In this document: positions 18,101 through 57,661 of the stretch, in pieces
How the letters are laid out: every line of letters begins with the position of its first letter
How positions within the stretch are numbered: the first letter of the stretch is position 1
Assembly (NCBI GenBank): GCA_963820825.1
Contig: CAWGBN010000005.1
Coordinates: forward strand, 32,001-96,000
Direction of reading: 5' to 3'
From: Vulcanimicrobiota bacterium
Lineage (GTDB): Bacteria; Vulcanimicrobiota; Vulcanimicrobiia; Vulcanimicrobiales; Vulcanimicrobiaceae
DNA length: 64,000 nt
Translations under genes and position numbers: made by a program
The notes under the pieces: model-generated
Told to the model about the DNA's origin: nothing
Seen by the model: the letters and a program-made list of their open reading frames with translations, nothing else
Database searches by the model: none

Positions 18101-18172
18101 CTGGGGTGGCTGGATTCGAACCAACGCATGGCGGAGTCAAAGTCCGCTGCCTTACCGCTTGGCTACACCCCA
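18101..18172 (-). tRNA. tRNA-Gln(TTG), CCA not encoded
   Basis: TGGGGTG/CACCCCA acceptor stem, GCGGA-CTTTGAC-TCCGC anticodon arm, GGTTCGAATCC T arm. Confidence 0.97.
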
Positions 18173-18893: not shown

Positions 18894-18910
18894 GAGACAA
18901 CTCCTCTTCC

Positions 18911-19032
18911 ACGACACTTGCGGGGTTAGTTGACGGGTTCGGACGGGAAAGAATCGCCCTAGGGCCGACCGGCCCATTCACCCCTACCGGGATATCCCCC
19001 GCTCGAGACTTACGTCCCGACTCAGTGACTGC
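18911..19032 (-). promoter_or_regulatory. c-di-AMP (ydaO/yuaA-class) riboswitch
   Basis: Sense strand carries the hallmark motifs ACTGAGTC...GGGGGA...GGGGTGAAT...TAGGG...CCGAACCCGTCAACTAACCCCGCAAGT directly upstream of a peptidoglycan hydrolase RBS. Confidence 0.9.
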
Positions 19033-19104
19033 TTATAGGCAGATGTGGCGGCGCTTCGGCATTATGCCGGGGCGCCCTTCCACGCGCCGGATGAACCTCC
19101 GATT

Positions 19105-51507: not shown

Positions 51508-51517
51508 CGGAGAATAA

Positions 51518-51634
51518 TCTGGCACCGACCTACTTTCGAGGGACCCTGCGGTCCGACTATCATCGGCGCTGGCGGGCTTAACTGCCGTGTTCGGGATGGG
51601 AACGGGTGGGACCCCGCCGCCATGGACGCCAGAA
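51518..51634 (-). rRNA. rrf: 5S rRNA
   Basis: CCCATCCCGAACACGG, GATGATAGT, AAGTAGGTCGGTGCCAG conserved segments. Confidence 0.96.
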
Positions 51635-52031
51635 ACCTTGGTCCGCCGCGGATCGTCGCGATGGCGAGCCGGAGCTCTAGCCGATCGCGCCGGGAAGCTT
51701 TAAAGCTGTACAGAGAAGAACTTCCAAGTGCCGCGACGAGCGGTGCGTTAGTTTAATCAAAATTTCCGAGCGATTAGTACCGGTCAGCTCCACACCTTAC
51801 GATGCTTCTACCTCCGGCCTATCAACGTGGTAGTCTACCACGACTCTTCACCCTTACGGGATTGAGATCTCATCTTGGAGTCAGTTTCACGCTTATATGC
51901 TTTCAGCGTTTATCTGATCCGAACGTAGCTACCCGGCTATGCTCCTGGCGGAACAACCGGTTCACCAGAGGTTCGTTCGACCCGGTCCTCTCGTACTAGG
52001 GTCCAATCTCCTCAAATCTCCTACGCCCACA

Positions 52032-52072
<41 letters not shown>

Positions 52073-52080
52073 ATCGCGTA

Positions 52081-52116
<36 letters not shown>

Positions 52117-52141
52117 AACTACAGCCCCAGGATGCGACGAT

Positions 52142-52176
<35 letters not shown>

Positions 52177-52177
52177 G

Positions 52178-52988
52178 CGTTCTGCAATCACTTGCAGCGC
52201 AGACTATACCTTCATCTCTTTCGAGATGGTGGCGTGTTATGGACGCGATAGATTTGCGCGCTAGCGTGCAGCACGTCCATCTCTCGTGGTAACGAGAAGT
52301 CGTTACAGGGAGAGCTTGTATAGCATACTCGGTAAGAGTGTGGCGTCGAACGAGTTGGGTCAGACGATCCATGCTCGCTGCGCTGCAGCGGAGCCGTGGA
52401 TGAGACTTGTCTCGATTGACGGTCATCACGATGCCGAACTTAGCTCGTATGAGACGAACGAGTTCTCTCAGCCTCTTCGGCTGAGAAGCTCTGCGTATTT
52501 ATCCGCAACTGCTTGCCTTCAGCTGCGCCGTCATCCATGATCCACACCGCCAGACCGAAGTCCGTCAAGCTACGTTCCAGTAGTTTGATCGGAACGACCT
52601 TTACGTCTGTCGGCATAGAACTGCTCGCGTAGCACCGCGAACTTAGGATGCGTTACGGTCCGAAAATAGTATCCATTTCCGGACATCCGCGGCGCCGTTC
52701 GCACGTAAGGTGCGAGCTCGGCGTACTTCCAATCCACGAGGTCTTGCTGCCGGGTACCGTGGTGGACCCGAAAACAATATCCCGACGTGGTTTTCAGTAA
52801 CGTCGCGTCACCGAGCAATGAGCCGATCATCAATTCCCACTCACGGGAACTGAACGGTGTTGCTCGTGCACGACGGCCAAATAACGTCTCTACGACAAAC
52901 TCTCTTCCCTCGGTATTGCCCTCCGCAAGGGTTTCACCGATATGAGCCACTGTTCATCATCCGATCGCTCGAATGAGGAGCCCAAATG
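52178..52988 (-). mobile_element. group I intron in 23S rRNA after U2473 (E. coli numbering)
   Basis: Exons rejoin as CCCAAGAGU|CCACAUCGAC; 5' exon ends in U and intron ends in G; P1 with U.G, P3, P4-P6, P7 (GACU/AGUC), P7.1/P7.2, P8 and P9 are recognisable. Confidence 0.93.
52303..52950 (-). CDS. intron-encoded two-motif LAGLIDADG homing endonuclease (three +1 frameshifts)
   Basis: IGSLLGDATL, then after shifts LAVWIMDDG, INTQSFS, KFGI, C-terminal PSMLYKLSL with TAA at 52305-52303. Start uncertain. Confidence 0.85.
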
Positions 52989-53024
<36 letters not shown>

Positions 53025-53038
53025 GCTTTTATCCGATA

Positions 53039-53074
<36 letters not shown>

Positions 53075-53164
53075 TAGCCCTGCTTTCGCACCTGCTCGAC
53101 CTGTCCGTCTCGCAGTCAAGCTCCCTTATGCCTATGCACTCTGTACGAACGGTTTCTGACCGTC

Positions 53165-53232
<68 letters not shown>

Positions 53233-53490
53233 ACCATGTCCTACCACCGGATTATGGCGGCTAGTTAGAATCCCAAGATTATCAGGGTGGTATCCCAACG
53301 TTGCCTCCCCGACGACTAGCGCCGCCGGATCATCGGCTCCCACCTATCCTGTACAGACAATCTCAGAACCCAAGATCAGGATACAGTAAAGCTTCACGGG
53401 GTCTTTCCGTCCTGCTGCGGGTAACCAGCATCTTCACTGGTACTGCAATTTCGCCGAGTTCCCCATTGAGACAGTGTCCAAGTCGTTACT

Positions 53491-53542
<52 letters not shown>

Positions 53543-54047
53543 GGTTATAGTTACCGCCGCCGTTTACTGGGGCTTCAGTTCAAAGCTTCGCTTGCGCTAA
53601 CCACTCCCTTTAACCTTCCAGCACCGGGCAGGAGTCAGCCCCTATACGTCCGCTTTCGCGTTCGCAGAGACCTGTGTTTTTGTTAAACAGTCGCTTGGAC
53701 CTATTTTGTGCCGCCTCCCTCAGCTTTCGTGCGTAAAGACTAGACCAAAGGAGGCACCCCTTCTCCCTAAGTTACGGGGTCAATTTGCCGAGTTCCTTAA
53801 CAGGGATTCTCTCGTCGCCTTAGCATGCTCTGCCAGTCTACCTGTGTCGGTGTACGGTACGGGCACCTACGATCCTACCTAGGGGCTTTTCTTGGCAGCG
53901 TGGAGTCAGTCACTTCGGCTCCGAAGAGCCTCGCATTCGCTTCTCGGCGTTACGTGTTGCGGATTTACCTACAACACCGCCTACCAGCTTAGACGCGCAC
54001 ATCCATCGGCGCGCTGACCTATCCTCCTGCGTCACCCCATCGGCTCA

Positions 54048-54223
54048 TAGACTTTGATAGACGATATCAGACGTCGCGGGTCTTTTCGTCGATCGCGTTC
54101 GTCGCGCTCAGTTACGATCCGTAGATCGCTCCTTCGGCGCTCCTAGCGCTCGAGCAAAAATCCCTCGCGAGGAGCGTCTTGCGAGGGCGATTCACGACAT
54201 CTGACACTGTCTGGCAAAGTCTA
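54048..54223 (-). other. 176-nt intervening sequence (IVS) in 23S rRNA, approx. E. coli 1410 region
   Basis: Extra sequence bounded by a ~29-bp imperfect inverted repeat TAGACTTTG...CAAAGTCTA. Confidence 0.85.
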
Positions 54224-55154
54224 AACGGTCGTCGGTGGTAGCAGAATATGAACTGCTTGTGCATCGCCTACGCTTCTCAGCCTCGGCTTAGCTCCCGACT
54301 CACCCTGAGACGATTGACGTTGCTCAGGAAACCTTAGACTTCCGGCGTGCGGGGTTCTCACCCGCATTTATCGCTACTTATACCTGCATTCGCACTTGTG
54401 GTTCGTCCACACGTCCTTACGGTCGTGCTTCAGCCTACGCCACAACGCTCCCCTACCGATTATTTTAGTAATCCCAAAGCTTCGGTTCGATGCTTGAGCC
54501 CCGTTACATTTTCGGCGCCCCATCACTCGACTAGTGAGCTATTACGCACTCTTTCAAGGGTGGCTGCTTCTAAGCCAACCTCCTAGTTGTCTGAGCGACA
54601 AGACTTCCTTTACCACTGAGCATCGATTAGGGACCTTAGCTGTTGATCTGGGCTGTTTCCCTTTTGACCATGGAGCTTATCCCCCACAGTCTGACTGCTA
54701 TGCGGTTCGCCGCGGTATTCGGAGTTTGATTGGGTTCGGTAGTCCGGTAAGACCCCTAGCCCTGTCAGTGCTCTACCCCCGCGGGTTAACACATAACGCT
54801 AGTCCTAAAACTATTTCGGGGAGAACCAGCTATCTCCGAGTTCGATTGGCTTTTCACCCCTATCCACAGCTCATCCAATGTTTTTTCAACAACAACAGGT
54901 TCGGGCCTCCACGTGAGTTTAATCACGCTTCACCCTGGCTCATGGATAGATCACTCGGTTTCGGGTCTACTGCAACGGACAAACGCCCTATTCAGACTCG
55001 CTTTCGCTACGGCTCCGGCTCAACACCTTAACCAAGCCCGTTACAAGTAACTCGCAGGTTCATTCTTCAATAGGCACGCGATCAGCCTTGCTTGCGCATG
55101 GGCCTTTCACGGTTTGTAGGCATGCGGTTTCATGTTCTATTTCACTCCCCTCCC

Positions 55155-55188
<34 letters not shown>

Positions 55189-56151
55189 ACGCTATCGGTT
55201 TCCACAGAATATTTAGCCTTGGAAGATGGTCCTCCCAGTTTCAGACAGGGTTTCCCGTGCCCCGCCCTACTCACGAACAGCTCCGCGAGATCGATTGCTT
55301 TTGTCTACAGGACTTTCACCTTCTATGGTGCGGCTTTCCAGCCGGCTTCTACTAGCGATCGATTTTCTTACTCGCGCTCGGAGATTCAGCTCCGAGACGG
55401 CTGTCGTACAACCCCGCTCATGCAACGCCCGAATGCTTGCACACGAACGGTTTAGGCTGTTCCCAGTTCGCTCGCCACTACTACGGGAATCTCGGTTGAT
55501 GTCTTTTCCTCCGGCTACTTAGATGTTTCAGTTCACCGGGTACGCTCACTCGCGACTATTGAATTCATCGCGGTGTCCATGCCCATGACGGCATGGGGGT
55601 TGCCCCATTCGGATATCGCCGGATCATCGCTTCTTAGCAGCTCCCCGACGCTTTTCGCAGCTTGGCACGTCCTTCATCGCCTGTGGAACCAAGGTATCCA
55701 CCTGCATGCCCTTATTTCATTTTGACTTATACGCAAAATTGCACCATCAATCCATCTGACGAGCAGATGGCCGCTTTCATGTGTCGTGACACATGAAAGT
55801 TCTTCTCTATACAGTTTTCAAGGATCTCTCGCGGCGGCTCGCTCGCTCGCGATCCATCCGCGATACTCAGAGACGACTTCCGCCCGAGTCGAACGCCGGA
55901 GCGTCGAACTGCGAGGCGAGGTTCGTTCCCTCAAAGCTGAACAGTGCAGTACCTGTCGGCAGACCCCATTGCGGGACCTCCGTGCCGATACGATCGAGAT
56001 GATCGATAGACCTCCGTCGACGCTCGAGTGAGCGATAGTCCTTGGCCGCGACTCCGATACGAGATCGACGAGCGTTACTGTGGCTCGTCTGTGGTCGACT
56101 TAGTGTATACGCCGGCGCAATCGCGTAGACCACGATCCAACGACATGTACT

Positions 56152-57661
<1,510 letters not shown>

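What the first reader, a model, noticed from the sequence alone, without database searches (positions are those of the whole stretch)
52178..52988. Group I intron at an unusual 23S site (after U2473, helix 89 loop)
Seen: an 811-nt insertion. P1 GAGU|C pairs with GGCUC through U.G; P3 GUGGC/GCCAC; P4-P6 AUCGGUGAAA...GCAAUACCGAGGGAA; P7 GACU/AGUC; extra P7.1 (UCUCGU/ACGAGA) and P7.2 (AUGGACG/CGUCCAU), suggesting subgroup IA; P8 CAUCUC-GAAA-GAGAUG; P9; terminal G. I counted the position from A2451. Known: bacterial rRNA group I introns are rare outside a few lineages, and the sites I recall are around 1917-1951, 2449, 2500 and 2593-2604. Inference: possibly a new insertion site and host lineage.
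Basis: partly seen in the sequence, partly recalled or inferred. Interest (0 to 1): 0.85.

Follow-up and report, generated by a model that had tools for sequence, protein, structure and literature searches.

The report
Group I intron in 23S helix 89
The 811-base interruption of this soil bacterium's only 23S rRNA gene is a genuine self-splicing-type (group I) intron carrying a decayed homing-endonuclease gene, sitting at a ribosomal position where I found no earlier report of such an intron.

Summary
The 23S rRNA gene lies on the minus strand. It carries an 811-nt insert (window 52178-52988) directly after E. coli U2473, the first base of the helix 89 loop.

The insert has the full group I core: P1 with U.G, P2-P9, the P3/P7 pseudoknot, P7.1/P7.2 and a terminal G. 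Homologous introns of 241-814 nt occupy the same site in 19 of 151 genomes of the same phylum, which named look-alike records title Candidatus Eremiobacterota. They also occur in 2 of 151 genomes of a second phylum (a Dormibacteria-titled MAG) and in one metagenome contig.

On eight ORF-less copies, 97.7% of cells pair and 22 of 72 pairs show compensatory changes. Intron-less relatives read exactly the predicted ligated junction.

It is intact in five relatives but broken here by three 1-nt insertions.

Rfam's group I model does not hit this copy, and reaches only about 30 bits on ORF-less copies.

No paper I could search reports an intron at 2473, but the classic site catalogues were not available. 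Splicing itself is inferred, not shown.

Verdict: a real intron of a known kind, in a new site lineage. Interest is moderate.

The parts
51753..55727 (-). 23S rRNA gene, the only copy in the assembly, interrupted by the intron
   Evidence: RF02541 2698.7 bits, model 1-2925. The own genome holds one match to the intron region and one to the upstream exon.
52178..52988 (-). Group I intron, 811 nt, inserted after E. coli U2473 (L2473). The first base C is at 52988. The last base G (omega-G) is at 52178.
   Evidence: Intron-less relatives read AAGAGTCCACATCGACGG.
52989..52992 (-). Last four bases of the 5' exon (GAGU, U2473 at 52989), the exon strand of P1
   Evidence: P1 pairs are 8 of 8 G-C, A-U, G-C and U.G in alignment A2.
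52978..52983 (-). Internal guide sequence GGGCUC (3' strand of P1). G at intron nt 8 makes the U.G wobble with U2473.
52957..52976 (-). P2 hairpin (UCAUUCGA-GCGA-UCGGAUGA)
   Evidence: 4 of 8 pairs have compensatory changes. Coordinates.
52946..52950 (-). P3 5' strand GUGGC. It pairs with GCCAC at 52229-52233.
   Evidence: 3 of 5 pairs are compensatory..
52910..52940 (-). P4-P5 domain: P4 UCGGUG/UACCGA and a short P5 CCCU/AGGG
   Evidence: P4 is nearly invariant. P5 has 2 of 4 pairs compensatory. Coordinates.
52900..52909 (-). P6 5' strand (GGGAAGAGAG). The endonuclease reading frame already runs through it.
   Evidence: P6 has 4 of 8 pairs compensatory..
52303..52905 (-). LAGLIDADG_2 (I-SceI-like) homing-endonuclease gene remnant in the P6 loop. 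It is split over three frames by single extra bases near 52598-52611, 52460-52472 and 52330-52342. The stop codon UAA (52303-52305) lies in J6/7. The start codon is not identified, so the upper coordinate is approximate.
   Evidence: PF03161 matches on the two longest pieces (profile 1-89 and 87-134 of 168). Alignment with five intact homologues. The intact frames match PF03161 over 1-167/168. The nearest solved structure is I-SceI, E 2.5e-13. Coordinates.
52308..52314 (-). P6 3' strand CUCUCCC, also the last codons of the endonuclease frame
52298..52303 (-). P7 5' strand (A-C-GACU, with C as the bulge). It pairs with AGUCU at 52201-52205. Crosses P3 as a pseudoknot.
   Evidence: 5 of 5 pairs are invariant in 8 sequences, so covariation gives no support either way. 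That this helix is the guanosine-binding site is inferred from likeness to the Tetrahymena core, which I recall and no call showed.
52282..52297 (-). P7.1 hairpin (UCUCGU...ACGAGA)
   Evidence: 3 of 6 pairs compensatory.
52239..52280 (-). P7.2 (AUGGACG...CGUCCAU) with an inner helix
   Evidence: The outer helix has 1 of 7 pairs compensatory and the inner helix 3 of 6.
52229..52233 (-). P3 3' strand GCCAC
52213..52228 (-). P8 hairpin CAUCUC-GAAA-GAGAUG
   Evidence: Conserved. 95.8% of cells pair.
52201..52212 (-). J8/7 (AAGGUAU) and the P7 3' strand (AGUCU)
   Evidence: Invariant in all 8 aligned copies. The same motif was used to find relatives.
52182..52197 (-). P9 hairpin CUGCAA-GUGA-UUGCAG, followed by AACG. 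The final G is at 52178.
   Evidence: 2 of 6 pairs compensatory. All 13 loci listed end in G.

Best explanation
This is a mobile group I intron of the IA type with P7.1/P7.2, closest to the L2593/L2500 'IA3' rRNA introns. It sits in the apical loop of helix 89 of the 23S rRNA, after U2473.

How it works (inferred). The intron is transcribed within the pre-23S rRNA and folds into the P3-P9 catalytic core. Its guide sequence GGGCUC pairs with the exon end GAGU, placing U2473 in a U.G wobble. A free guanosine bound in P7 attacks after U2473. The freed 3' OH of U2473 then attacks after the terminal G at 52178. The exons join to give ...AAGAGU-CCACAUCGACGG..., which restores an intact helix 89.

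How it spread (inferred). The intron moved as DNA by homing. An I-SceI-like double-motif LAGLIDADG_2 endonuclease encoded in the P6 loop would cut the intron-less helix 89 DNA. Repair from an intron-bearing copy would then insert the intron.

State in this genome. The endonuclease gene is decayed by three 1-nt insertions, so the element is a fixed, immobile but still splicing intron. Relatives show the whole series: intact gene, frameshifted gene, internally deleted forms and ORF-less minimal ribozyme.

Shown: anatomy, site, conservation, covariation, gene decay and distribution. Inferred: catalysis, the splicing chemistry and endonuclease specificity.
For: (1) Complete core with covariation. 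On 8 ORF-less homologues, 72 pairs in 12 helices pair in 97.7% of cells. 22 pairs have changes on both sides. Slid controls give 35-43% paired and at most 7 such pairs. RNAalifold independently recovered P1-P6, P7.1, P7.2, P8 and P9.

(2) Splice-site rules. U.G in P1 in 8 of 8 copies. A terminal G in all 13 loci and all 19.

(3) RF00028 gives full-length (1-253) matches to ORF-less homologues at the same site: L012 30.5 bits (E 1.3e-4) and L011 29.3 bits (E 3e-4).

(4) All 11 intron-less helix 89 loci of the same genus, family or class read AAGAGTCCACATCGACGG, exactly the predicted ligation product.

(5) The assembly has one 23S gene and it carries the intron. The rest of the gene is full length. 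So the insert must be removed or tolerated.

(6) Same-site homologues occur in 19 of 151 genomes of the phylum. They also occur in 2 of 151 genomes of a second phylum and in 1 of 122 metagenome rows. In a tree of core columns with exon columns removed, the 16 L2473 rows form one group (SH-aLRT 93), apart from the L2593+L2500 and L1931 groups.

(7) Endonuclease. PF03161 matches over 1-167/168 in intact homologues. I-SceI is the nearest solved structure. Five relatives keep open frames of 205-225 codons, while this copy has three 1-nt insertions.

(8) ORF-less copies of 241-297 nt keep the core. Splicing therefore cannot depend on the intron's own protein.

(9) RNA contigs of four soil metatranscriptomes cover both exons deeply. 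The intron reads 0 in most bins and at most 4.46.
Against: Rfam's Intron_gpI model finds nothing on this copy even at E up to 10. No L2473 copy reaches its 50-bit gathering score. Two of the four ORF-less L2473 loci scanned (L006, L010) gave no hit at E up to 1.

P7, the proposed guanosine site, is invariant, so covariation neither supports nor refutes it. I saw no convincing P10 pairing with the 3' exon on reading the sequence.

No RNA evidence is specific to this organism. The ligated junction seen in RNA contigs is identical in intron-less relatives, exon depth sums many organisms, and contigs drop rare forms. One 116-nt RNA-library contig spans the 3' splice site unspliced (52148-52259, depth 4.46). 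It may be precursor RNA or DNA.

The alignment used for the tree was fitted to a model built from L2473 copies, which favours their grouping.

The three frameshifts could be assembly errors. I could not inspect this genome's reads.
Confidence: 0.88

Rival explanations
1. The insert is removed from the pre-rRNA without ligation, like bacterial intervening sequences cut out by RNase III. The result would be a fragmented 23S rRNA, and the group I-like fold would be a relic that no longer catalyses splicing.
For: No experiment shows ligation. No RNA data are specific to this organism. RF00028 does not reach its threshold on any L2473 copy.
Against: Every catalytic-core element is conserved across two phyla and supported by compensatory changes, including J8/7, P7, the U.G pair and the terminal G. 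A relic would decay, as the endonuclease gene did. Helix 89 lies in the peptidyl-transferase region, so a break there is unlikely to be tolerated (established knowledge, not tested here). The insert has no long terminal stem of the kind RNase III cuts. Its ends instead pair as P1 and P9.
Confidence: 0.04
2. The intron is real but does not self-splice in the cell. It would need a trans-acting protein, such as a host factor or a maturase-type LAGLIDADG protein encoded elsewhere. In that case loss of its own endonuclease gene matters.
For: Some group I introns need such helpers. A passage of PMC3984707 describes the Thermotoga 23S intron's LAGLIDADG protein acting as a maturase. No P10 was evident and P5 is short, so the core is minimal.
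Against: At least 13 genomes carry ORF-less L2473 copies of 241-297 nt. This genome's copy has a broken gene. An intron-encoded helper is therefore dispensable. A host factor cannot be excluded and would not change what the element is.
Confidence: 0.07
3. The insert is an assembly artefact: a chimeric join of an intron-bearing fragment from another organism into this MAG's rRNA operon.
For: rRNA operons are often misassembled in MAGs. The genome is 85% complete in 9 contigs.
Against: The same arrangement, with lineage-matched exon and intron variants, recurs in 19 genomes of the phylum, several of them in 1-3 contigs. Intron G+C (0.544) equals exon G+C (0.540). The intron tree largely follows host families.
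Confidence: 0.01

Closest known systems
L2593 group I introns of 23S/LSU rRNA (subgroup IA3). Examples are the cyanobacterial Synechococcus and Thermosynechococcus introns, the archaeal IA3 introns, CPR site 23IS12 and the Chlamydomonas Cr.LSU/I-CreI intron. The last example and the I-CreI name are recalled.
   Same: Same architecture: short P2, short P5, a P7.1+P7.2 extension of about 60 nt, and an endonuclease gene in a peripheral loop. PMC1995217 describes exactly this for L2593 (passage). The P4-P6 motif is shared: at least 32 of 122 metagenome rows matching it are L2593 introns. Three relatives (G030, G032, G037) carry both an L2473 and an L2593 intron. My model scores the L2593 copies of relatives at 115-139 bits.
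   Different: The insertion site is 120 nt upstream, in the helix 89 loop rather than helix 93/A-loop area. The guide sequence is GGGCUC against ...GAGU, not against ...ACGU. The L2473 copies form a separate group in the tree. The endonuclease is a double-motif LAGLIDADG_2 (I-SceI-like), not the single-motif LAGLIDADG_1 reported at 2593 (PMC11270868 passage; PMC1995217).
L2500 group I introns (archaeal IA3.2 and IA3.3 of Nawrocki et al. 2018, and copies found here in the same phylum)
   Same: Same intron superfamily, and only 27 nt downstream in the same rRNA region. They occur in the same genus as the window: 11 loci, which are uninterrupted at 2473. My model scores them at 80-120 bits.
   Different: Different site and guide sequence. 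They group with L2593, not with L2473. In the 30 loci of relatives examined, none carried both an L2473 and an L2500 intron.
Yeast mitochondrial omega intron (Sc.LSU.1) with I-SceI. Its site, L2449, is recalled.
   Same: The endonuclease family is the same. I-SceI is the best solved-structure match to the intact homologue (E 2.5e-13, residues 9-186 against 31-224). Both are PF03161. Both introns lie in the peptidyl-transferase region of LSU rRNA.
   Different: The host is bacterial, not mitochondrial. The site is 24 nt downstream, so the endonuclease must recognise a different target. This is inferred; no cleavage data exist. Protein similarity is remote.
rRNA introns of CPR/Patescibacteria (Tsurumaki et al. 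2024, PMC11270868)
   Same: Group I introns with LAGLIDADG genes clustered in the 3' third of bacterial 23S rRNA genes, often several per gene (passages).
   Different: The positions named in that paper's text do not include 2473. In my sample of 151 CPR genomes the best match to the L2473 model was 103 bits, against 146-318 bits for L2473 copies. 0 of the 13 fetched CPR loci that include helix 89 are interrupted there. The hosts here are 2-4 Mb soil lineages, not CPR.

Membership tests
Group I intron | Conserved core of paired regions P3-P9, with P3 and P7 crossing as a pseudoknot | tested here: met
   All helices are present in this copy. On 8 homologues 97.7% of cells pair and 22 of 72 pairs are compensatory. 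P7 itself is invariant, so it is supported only by conservation.
Group I intron | P1 formed by the 5' exon end and an internal guide sequence, with a U.G wobble at the 5' splice site | tested here: met
   GAGU|C pairs with GGCUC. U.G is present in 8 of 8 aligned copies and in this copy.
Group I intron | Guanosine as the last intron nucleotide (omega-G) | tested here: met
   G at 52178. All L2473 copies end in G: 13 loci, 19 loci, plus L090.
Group I intron | Guanosine-binding site in P7 and a conserved J8/7 | tested here: inconclusive
   A-(bulged C)-GACU paired with AGUCU, preceded by AAGGUAU, is invariant. It resembles the Tetrahymena P7 and J8/7 as I recall them. No call compared them, and binding cannot be computed here.
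Group I intron | Match to Rfam RF00028 at its gathering score (50 bits) | tested here: not met
   No hit on this copy at E up to 10. ORF-less homologues reach 30.5 and 29.3 bits, and two others give no hit. L2593 copies of the same superfamily also fall below threshold (39.6 bits). The shortfall therefore reflects the model's coverage of this subgroup and the roughly 590-nt P6 insert. This is a curated cut-off, not a defining property.
Group I intron | Guanosine-initiated two-step transesterification giving ligated exons | not testable with these tools
   RNA contigs show deep exon cover, near-zero intron cover and the ligated junction. None of this is specific to this organism.
Subgroup IA (IA3-like) | Extra helices P7.1 and P7.2 between P7 and the 3' strand of P3; short P2 and P5 | tested here: met
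   P7.1 has 3 of 6 pairs compensatory. P7.2 has an outer and an inner helix, both with compensatory pairs. This matches the description of L2593 introns in PMC1995217. Assignment to IA3 rather than IA1 or IA2 was not tested with subgroup models.
LAGLIDADG_2 (I-SceI-like) homing endonuclease | Two LAGLIDADG motifs in one chain matching PF03161 over its length | tested here: met
   Intact homologues: 112.1 and 111.8 bits, profile 1-167 and 3-168 of 168. The motifs LIGSLLGDA and LAVWIMDDG are visible. In this copy the match is split, 1-89 and 87-134.
LAGLIDADG_2 (I-SceI-like) homing endonuclease | An intact reading frame in this genome, meaning an active, mobile element | tested here: not met
   Three single-base insertions relative to five intact homologues put the gene in three frames. 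An assembly error cannot be excluded.
LAGLIDADG_2 (I-SceI-like) homing endonuclease | Site-specific cleavage of the intron-less allele at the insertion site | not testable with these tools
   The target would be ...CCCCCAAGAGT|CCACATCGACGGGG..., as read in intron-less relatives.

The most novel reading that the evidence does not exclude
L2473 is a previously uncatalogued rDNA homing site. It would be a distinct, single-origin lineage of IA3-like group I introns with its own I-SceI-family endonuclease, whose new specificity is the DNA of the helix 89 loop. The lineage would have crossed between two soil phyla, Eremiobacterota and the Dormibacteria lineage. Public genomes would preserve the complete life cycle of a homing element: intact gene, frameshifted gene, deleted gene, bare ribozyme and empty site.
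Probability: 0.55. Interest if true: 0.5.

Novelty: new member of a known kind. Interest (0 to 1): 0.4.

Why it matters
Group I introns occupy few, highly conserved rRNA positions. Each site lineage comes with an endonuclease that recognises a long, invariant DNA target.

A lineage at the helix 89 loop would add a site next to the peptidyl-transferase centre to that map. It would also add an I-SceI-family enzyme with a new 20-30 bp target that is conserved across bacteria, which is of interest for endonuclease engineering. The intact genes in relatives (L150, L151, L152, L154, L156, L207) could be expressed.

It also shows that the poorly studied soil phyla Eremiobacterota and Dormibacteria carry intron-rich 23S genes: L1931, L2473, L2500 and L2593 were all seen here. 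That is relevant for rRNA-based surveys, rRNA annotation and long-read binning.

The set of 241- to 834-nt copies is a clean natural series for studying how homing elements decay.

It does not change the understanding of how such introns work.

Tried and rejected
1. Rfam on the window gave no group I hit at gathering score, and none at E up to 10 on 52000-53200. I did not take this as evidence against an intron, because ORF-less homologues match full length below threshold.

2. The first collection scan used a 16-nt J8/7-P7 motif in genome contigs. It was too unspecific. It stopped at 120 rows, and most were introns at other sites or chance matches. It still gave organism titles and the Dormibacteria copy.

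3. A global MAFFT alignment of this 23S gene against the E. coli gene misplaced the intron at the 3' end. I used direct indexing of rrlH for the numbering instead. The two other inserts it lists are only roughly placed.

4. I laid RNA contigs from 4 metatranscriptomes of 4 studies. They gave no organism-specific proof of splicing. Many 'joints' near the site carry other letters and belong to other organisms' intron-less rRNA. The near-absence of intron cover is not evidence on its own.

5. P10 pairing between the 3' exon and the bases 5' of the guide sequence: none was convincing on reading the sequence.

6. The endonuclease start codon could not be fixed. Candidate in-frame GTG or TTG codons differ between homologues.

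7. Paper searches for L2473/2473 with intron terms returned nothing relevant. Eremiobacterota plus intron gave 3 papers, none about rRNA introns by title or abstract.

8. Earlier notes of this scan hold no look-alike of this intron. A word search gave only other sites or an archaeal bulge-helix-bulge intron at helix 89.

9. I considered and dropped the idea of a second intron in this 23S gene. My model finds no further match in 51700-55800.
Full report
WHAT IS THERE

Rfam finds a complete rRNA operon on the minus strand: 16S at 56158-57661, 23S at 51753-55727 and 5S at 51517-51633. The 23S match spans the whole 2925-position model but covers 3975 nt.

The alignment shows one large insert of about 815 nt between ...CCCAAGAGU and ...UCGACGG. 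Read on the minus strand:
- The 5' exon ends AAGAGU at 52989.
- The insert begins CAUUUGGGCUCC at 52988 and ends GCAGAACG at 52178.
- The 3' exon begins CCACAUCGACGG.

To check the numbering I fetched E. coli MG1655 rrlH and indexed it. AAGAGT ends at T2473. In Rfam's consensus structure this is the first base of the apical loop of the helix closed by 2471-2472/2479-2480, which is helix 89.

IS IT A GROUP I INTRON

Rfam's Intron_gpI model does not hit this copy, even at E up to 10. The case therefore rests on comparative evidence.

A BLAST of the insert against 40 relatives found matches in 11 of them, or 12 of 41 counting the window's own genome. In several, only the first ~95 nt and last ~150 nt matched. 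These are shorter, ORF-less versions.

Extraction by exon flanks gave inserts of 241-811 nt at exactly the same site in 10 genomes including the window's own. Two further matches are cut by contig ends.

I aligned seven ORF-less copies plus one from a MAG titled Candidatus Dormibacteria. RNAalifold recovered P1, P2, P3, P4, P5, P6, P7.1, P7.2, P8 and P9. I added P7 by hand as the pseudoknot partner of P3 and counted pairs:
- 97.7% of 575 cells form standard pairs.
- 22 of 72 pairs change on both sides.
- 0 of 500 shuffles reach these values.
- Sliding the 3' partners by 1-3 columns drops pairing to 35-43%, with at most 7 compensatory pairs.

Compensatory changes fall in P2 (4 of 8 pairs), P3 (3 of 5), P5 (2 of 4), P6 (4 of 8), P7.1 (3 of 6), P7.2 (outer 1 of 7, inner 3 of 6) and P9 (2 of 6). 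P1, P4, P7 and P8 are essentially invariant, so covariation says nothing about them.

The U.G wobble at the 5' splice site is present in 8 of 8 copies, and every copy ends in G. On ORF-less copies RF00028 gives full-length matches below threshold: L012 30.5 bits and L011 29.3 bits. L006 and L010 give none.

A covariance model built from the eight sequences finds the window's intron as two halves, 81.1 bits for P1-P6 and 149.8 bits for P6'-P9. They are separated by the ORF, and all helices are intact.

I conclude that this is a bona fide group I intron. The Rfam miss comes from the roughly 590-nt insert in P6 and from that model's weak coverage of this subgroup. An L2593 intron of the same superfamily also scores only 39.6 bits.

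BOUNDARIES AND PRODUCT

Eleven loci from the same genus, family or class carry an intron at L2500 instead. They have an uninterrupted helix 89 reading AAGAGTCCACATCGACGG. That is precisely the predicted ligation product.

The intron's first base and the 3' exon's first base are both C, so sequence alone allows a 1-nt shift. Only the boundary after U2473 gives a U before the 5' splice site and a G at the intron's 3' end.

In the second phylum the copies are followed by U. This gives AAGAGU-UCACAUCG, which matches an intron-less genome of that phylum (L171).

THE ENDONUCLEASE GENE

Two overlapping ORFs match Pfam LAGLIDADG_2: 52570-52950 on profile positions 1-89, and 52440-52616 on positions 87-134 of 168.

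Five relatives (G153, G006, G086, G118, G166) have a single open frame of 205-225 codons. These frames match the profile end to end, 1-167/168. They carry two motifs, LIGSLLGDA and LAVWIMDDG. The best solved-structure match is I-SceI (E 2.5e-13).

Aligned with these five, the window's copy has three single extra bases, near 52598-52611, 52460-52472 and 52330-52342. So the gene is a pseudogene here, unless these are assembly errors.

The frame enters from the P4-P6 region. It ends with ...LPSMLYKLSL, and its UAA stop is the UAA of J6/7. The last codons are therefore also the 3' strand of P6. I could not fix the start codon.

Other relatives show further decay: 654 nt (G139, N-terminal half deleted), 451 nt (G024), 322 nt (G164) and 241-297 nt ORF-less forms. 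This is the pattern expected from the homing cycle of invasion, fixation, endonuclease decay and loss. The homing-cycle concept is recalled from the literature, not taken from a call.

DISTRIBUTION

Named genome contigs records with near-identical intron 3' parts are titled Candidatus Eremiobacter(ae)ota.

- Window's phylum. In a sample of 151 genomes, 40 match my model. By exon flanks, 19 genomes including the window's carry an L2473 intron. 11 of the remaining fetched loci are L2500 introns. Three genomes carry L2473 and L2593 together.
- Second phylum. In the phylum of the Dormibacteria-titled MAG, 5 of 151 genomes match and 2 (G172, G213) carry L2473 introns.
- Metagenomes. A scan with the P4-P6 motif stopped at 122 rows. 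At least 32 are L2593 introns and one (L207) is an L2473 intron: 834 nt, an intact 224-codon frame, with Dormibacteria-like exons.
- CPR. In 151 genomes, 40 match but none above 103 bits, against 146-318 bits for L2473 copies. 0 of the 13 fetched loci that include helix 89 are interrupted there.
- Tree. I built a quick maximum-likelihood tree on 213 core columns with exon columns removed (51 rows; rows under 85% coverage and duplicates dropped). The 16 L2473 rows fall in one group (SH-aLRT 93), with the 14 Eremiobacterota rows inside it (99). They are separate from an L2593+L2500 group (96) and an L1931 group.

Caveats on the tree: the alignment was fitted to a model made from L2473 copies, the search was short, and the alignment is short.

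A single origin of the site lineage, with transfer between the two phyla, is the simplest reading. It is not proven.

MUST IT SPLICE

The assembly holds one 23S gene and it carries the intron. Apart from the intron, the gene is a full-length, high-scoring 23S.

RNA contigs from four soil metatranscriptomes of four studies cover the flanking exons at summed depths of thousands to hundreds of thousands. The intron bins read 0, except for 4.46 and 0.79 (X2) and 1.94, 0.64 and 0.72 (X6). Contigs in X2 and X4 show the exact ligated junction as loose ends. One 116-nt contig in X2 crosses the 3' splice site unspliced.

None of this can be assigned to this organism. Intron-less relatives share the exon sequences, and exon depth sums many taxa. 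I treat it as compatible with splicing, not as proof.

COMPARISON WITH WHAT IS KNOWN

- PMC1995217 (passages read) lists bacterial HEG-bearing LSU introns at L1917, L1931, L1951 and L2593. It describes L2593 introns as having short P2 and P5 and a ~65-nt P7.1/P7.2 extension, the architecture seen here.
- PMC6125680 (passages) reports archaeal IA3 introns at LSU/2593 and 2500. It states that all LSU positions found were previously known sites.
- PMC11270868 (passages and supplement text) names CPR positions 1917, 1931, 1952, 2593, 2604 and 2657. It also has three sites (23IS9-11) whose coordinates sit in a figure I could not read; one is labelled near 2500.
- PMC3984707 (passages) and PMC11835236 (passages) give no site list.
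- Searches for L2473 or 2473 with intron terms returned nothing relevant.
- Earlier notes of this scan hold no look-alike.

The Comparative RNA Web site and GISSD tables, which I recall as the standard catalogues, were not available. 'Unreported site' therefore remains probable rather than established.

VERDICT

This is a real group I intron of a well-known structural type and life style. It sits at a site I found no record of, in two little-studied soil phyla, and carries an I-SceI-family endonuclease gene that is decayed in this genome.

It is a new member (site lineage) of a known kind. It is moderately interesting to intron and homing-endonuclease specialists, and not surprising in mechanism.

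Noticed in passing
L157-L167 (relatives G031, G033, G100, G160, G090, G159, G064, G152, G163, G128, G018) and L171 (G225): Many relatives lack the L2473 intron. Instead they carry a related group I intron at L2500 (GGCACCU|C...G|CGAUGUCGG), 27 nt downstream. None of the 30 loci of relatives examined had both.
   Followed up: partly
L012/L145 (G030), L009/L139 (G032), L008/L138 (G037): These three genomes carry a second, related intron at the classic L2593 site (273-287 nt), 120 exon bases downstream of their L2473 intron. They also have a third match further upstream, which my flank rule labelled L1931.
   Followed up: partly
L145:1585-1650 and L145:1962-2027 (G030): The L2473 and L2593 introns of G030 share an identical 66-nt run covering P4', P6, J6/7, P7 and P7.1. 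In G037 and G032 the longest identical run is 14 nt. This looks like gene conversion between two introns within one rRNA gene.
   Followed up: partly
L006:2350-2625 (-) and L012:493-763 (+): RF00028 matches above its gathering score (66.4 and 64.7 bits) lie about 550-850 nt upstream of the L2473 intron in two relatives' 23S genes. This is a different intron type, and I did not determine its site. The window's own 23S gene has no such match.
   Followed up: no
window 54043-54225 (-) and 55390-55448 (-): This 23S gene has two further extras relative to E. coli: about 183 nt near E. coli position 1416 and about 59 nt near position 274. Placement comes from a rough global alignment. The 183-nt segment is conserved at about 80% in same-genus relatives, so it is probably a lineage-specific expansion segment rather than an intron.
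   Followed up: partly
window 52303-52314 (-): The endonuclease frame ends ...MLYKLSL with its UAA stop inside J6/7 of the ribozyme. Its last codons double as the 3' strand of P6, so coding and catalytic constraints overlap there.
   Followed up: partly
L207:854-1687 (metagenome contig): An 834-nt L2473 intron with an intact 224-codon LAGLIDADG frame, in a 23S gene whose exons resemble the Dormibacteria-titled copies. The endonuclease therefore travels with the intron in the second lineage too.
   Followed up: partly
window 52148-52259: One 116-nt contig of RNA library X2 (depth 4.46, one mismatch) crosses the 3' splice site unspliced. It may be precursor rRNA, or DNA present in the library.
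   Followed up: no
window 18899-19037 (-) and 18101-18172 (-): A c-di-AMP riboswitch (RF00379, 80.1 bits) and a tRNA gene. Neither is related to the finding.
   Followed up: no
L018-L137 (genome-contig scan): The J8/7-P7 motif GAUGAAGRUAUAGUCU recurs at the 3' ends of introns at many other 23S sites in CPR and other bacteria. By the downstream exon, these include sites near 2449, 2500-2504, 2593, about 2656 and 1931. Only 4 of the 120 rows lay at 2473.
   Followed up: partly
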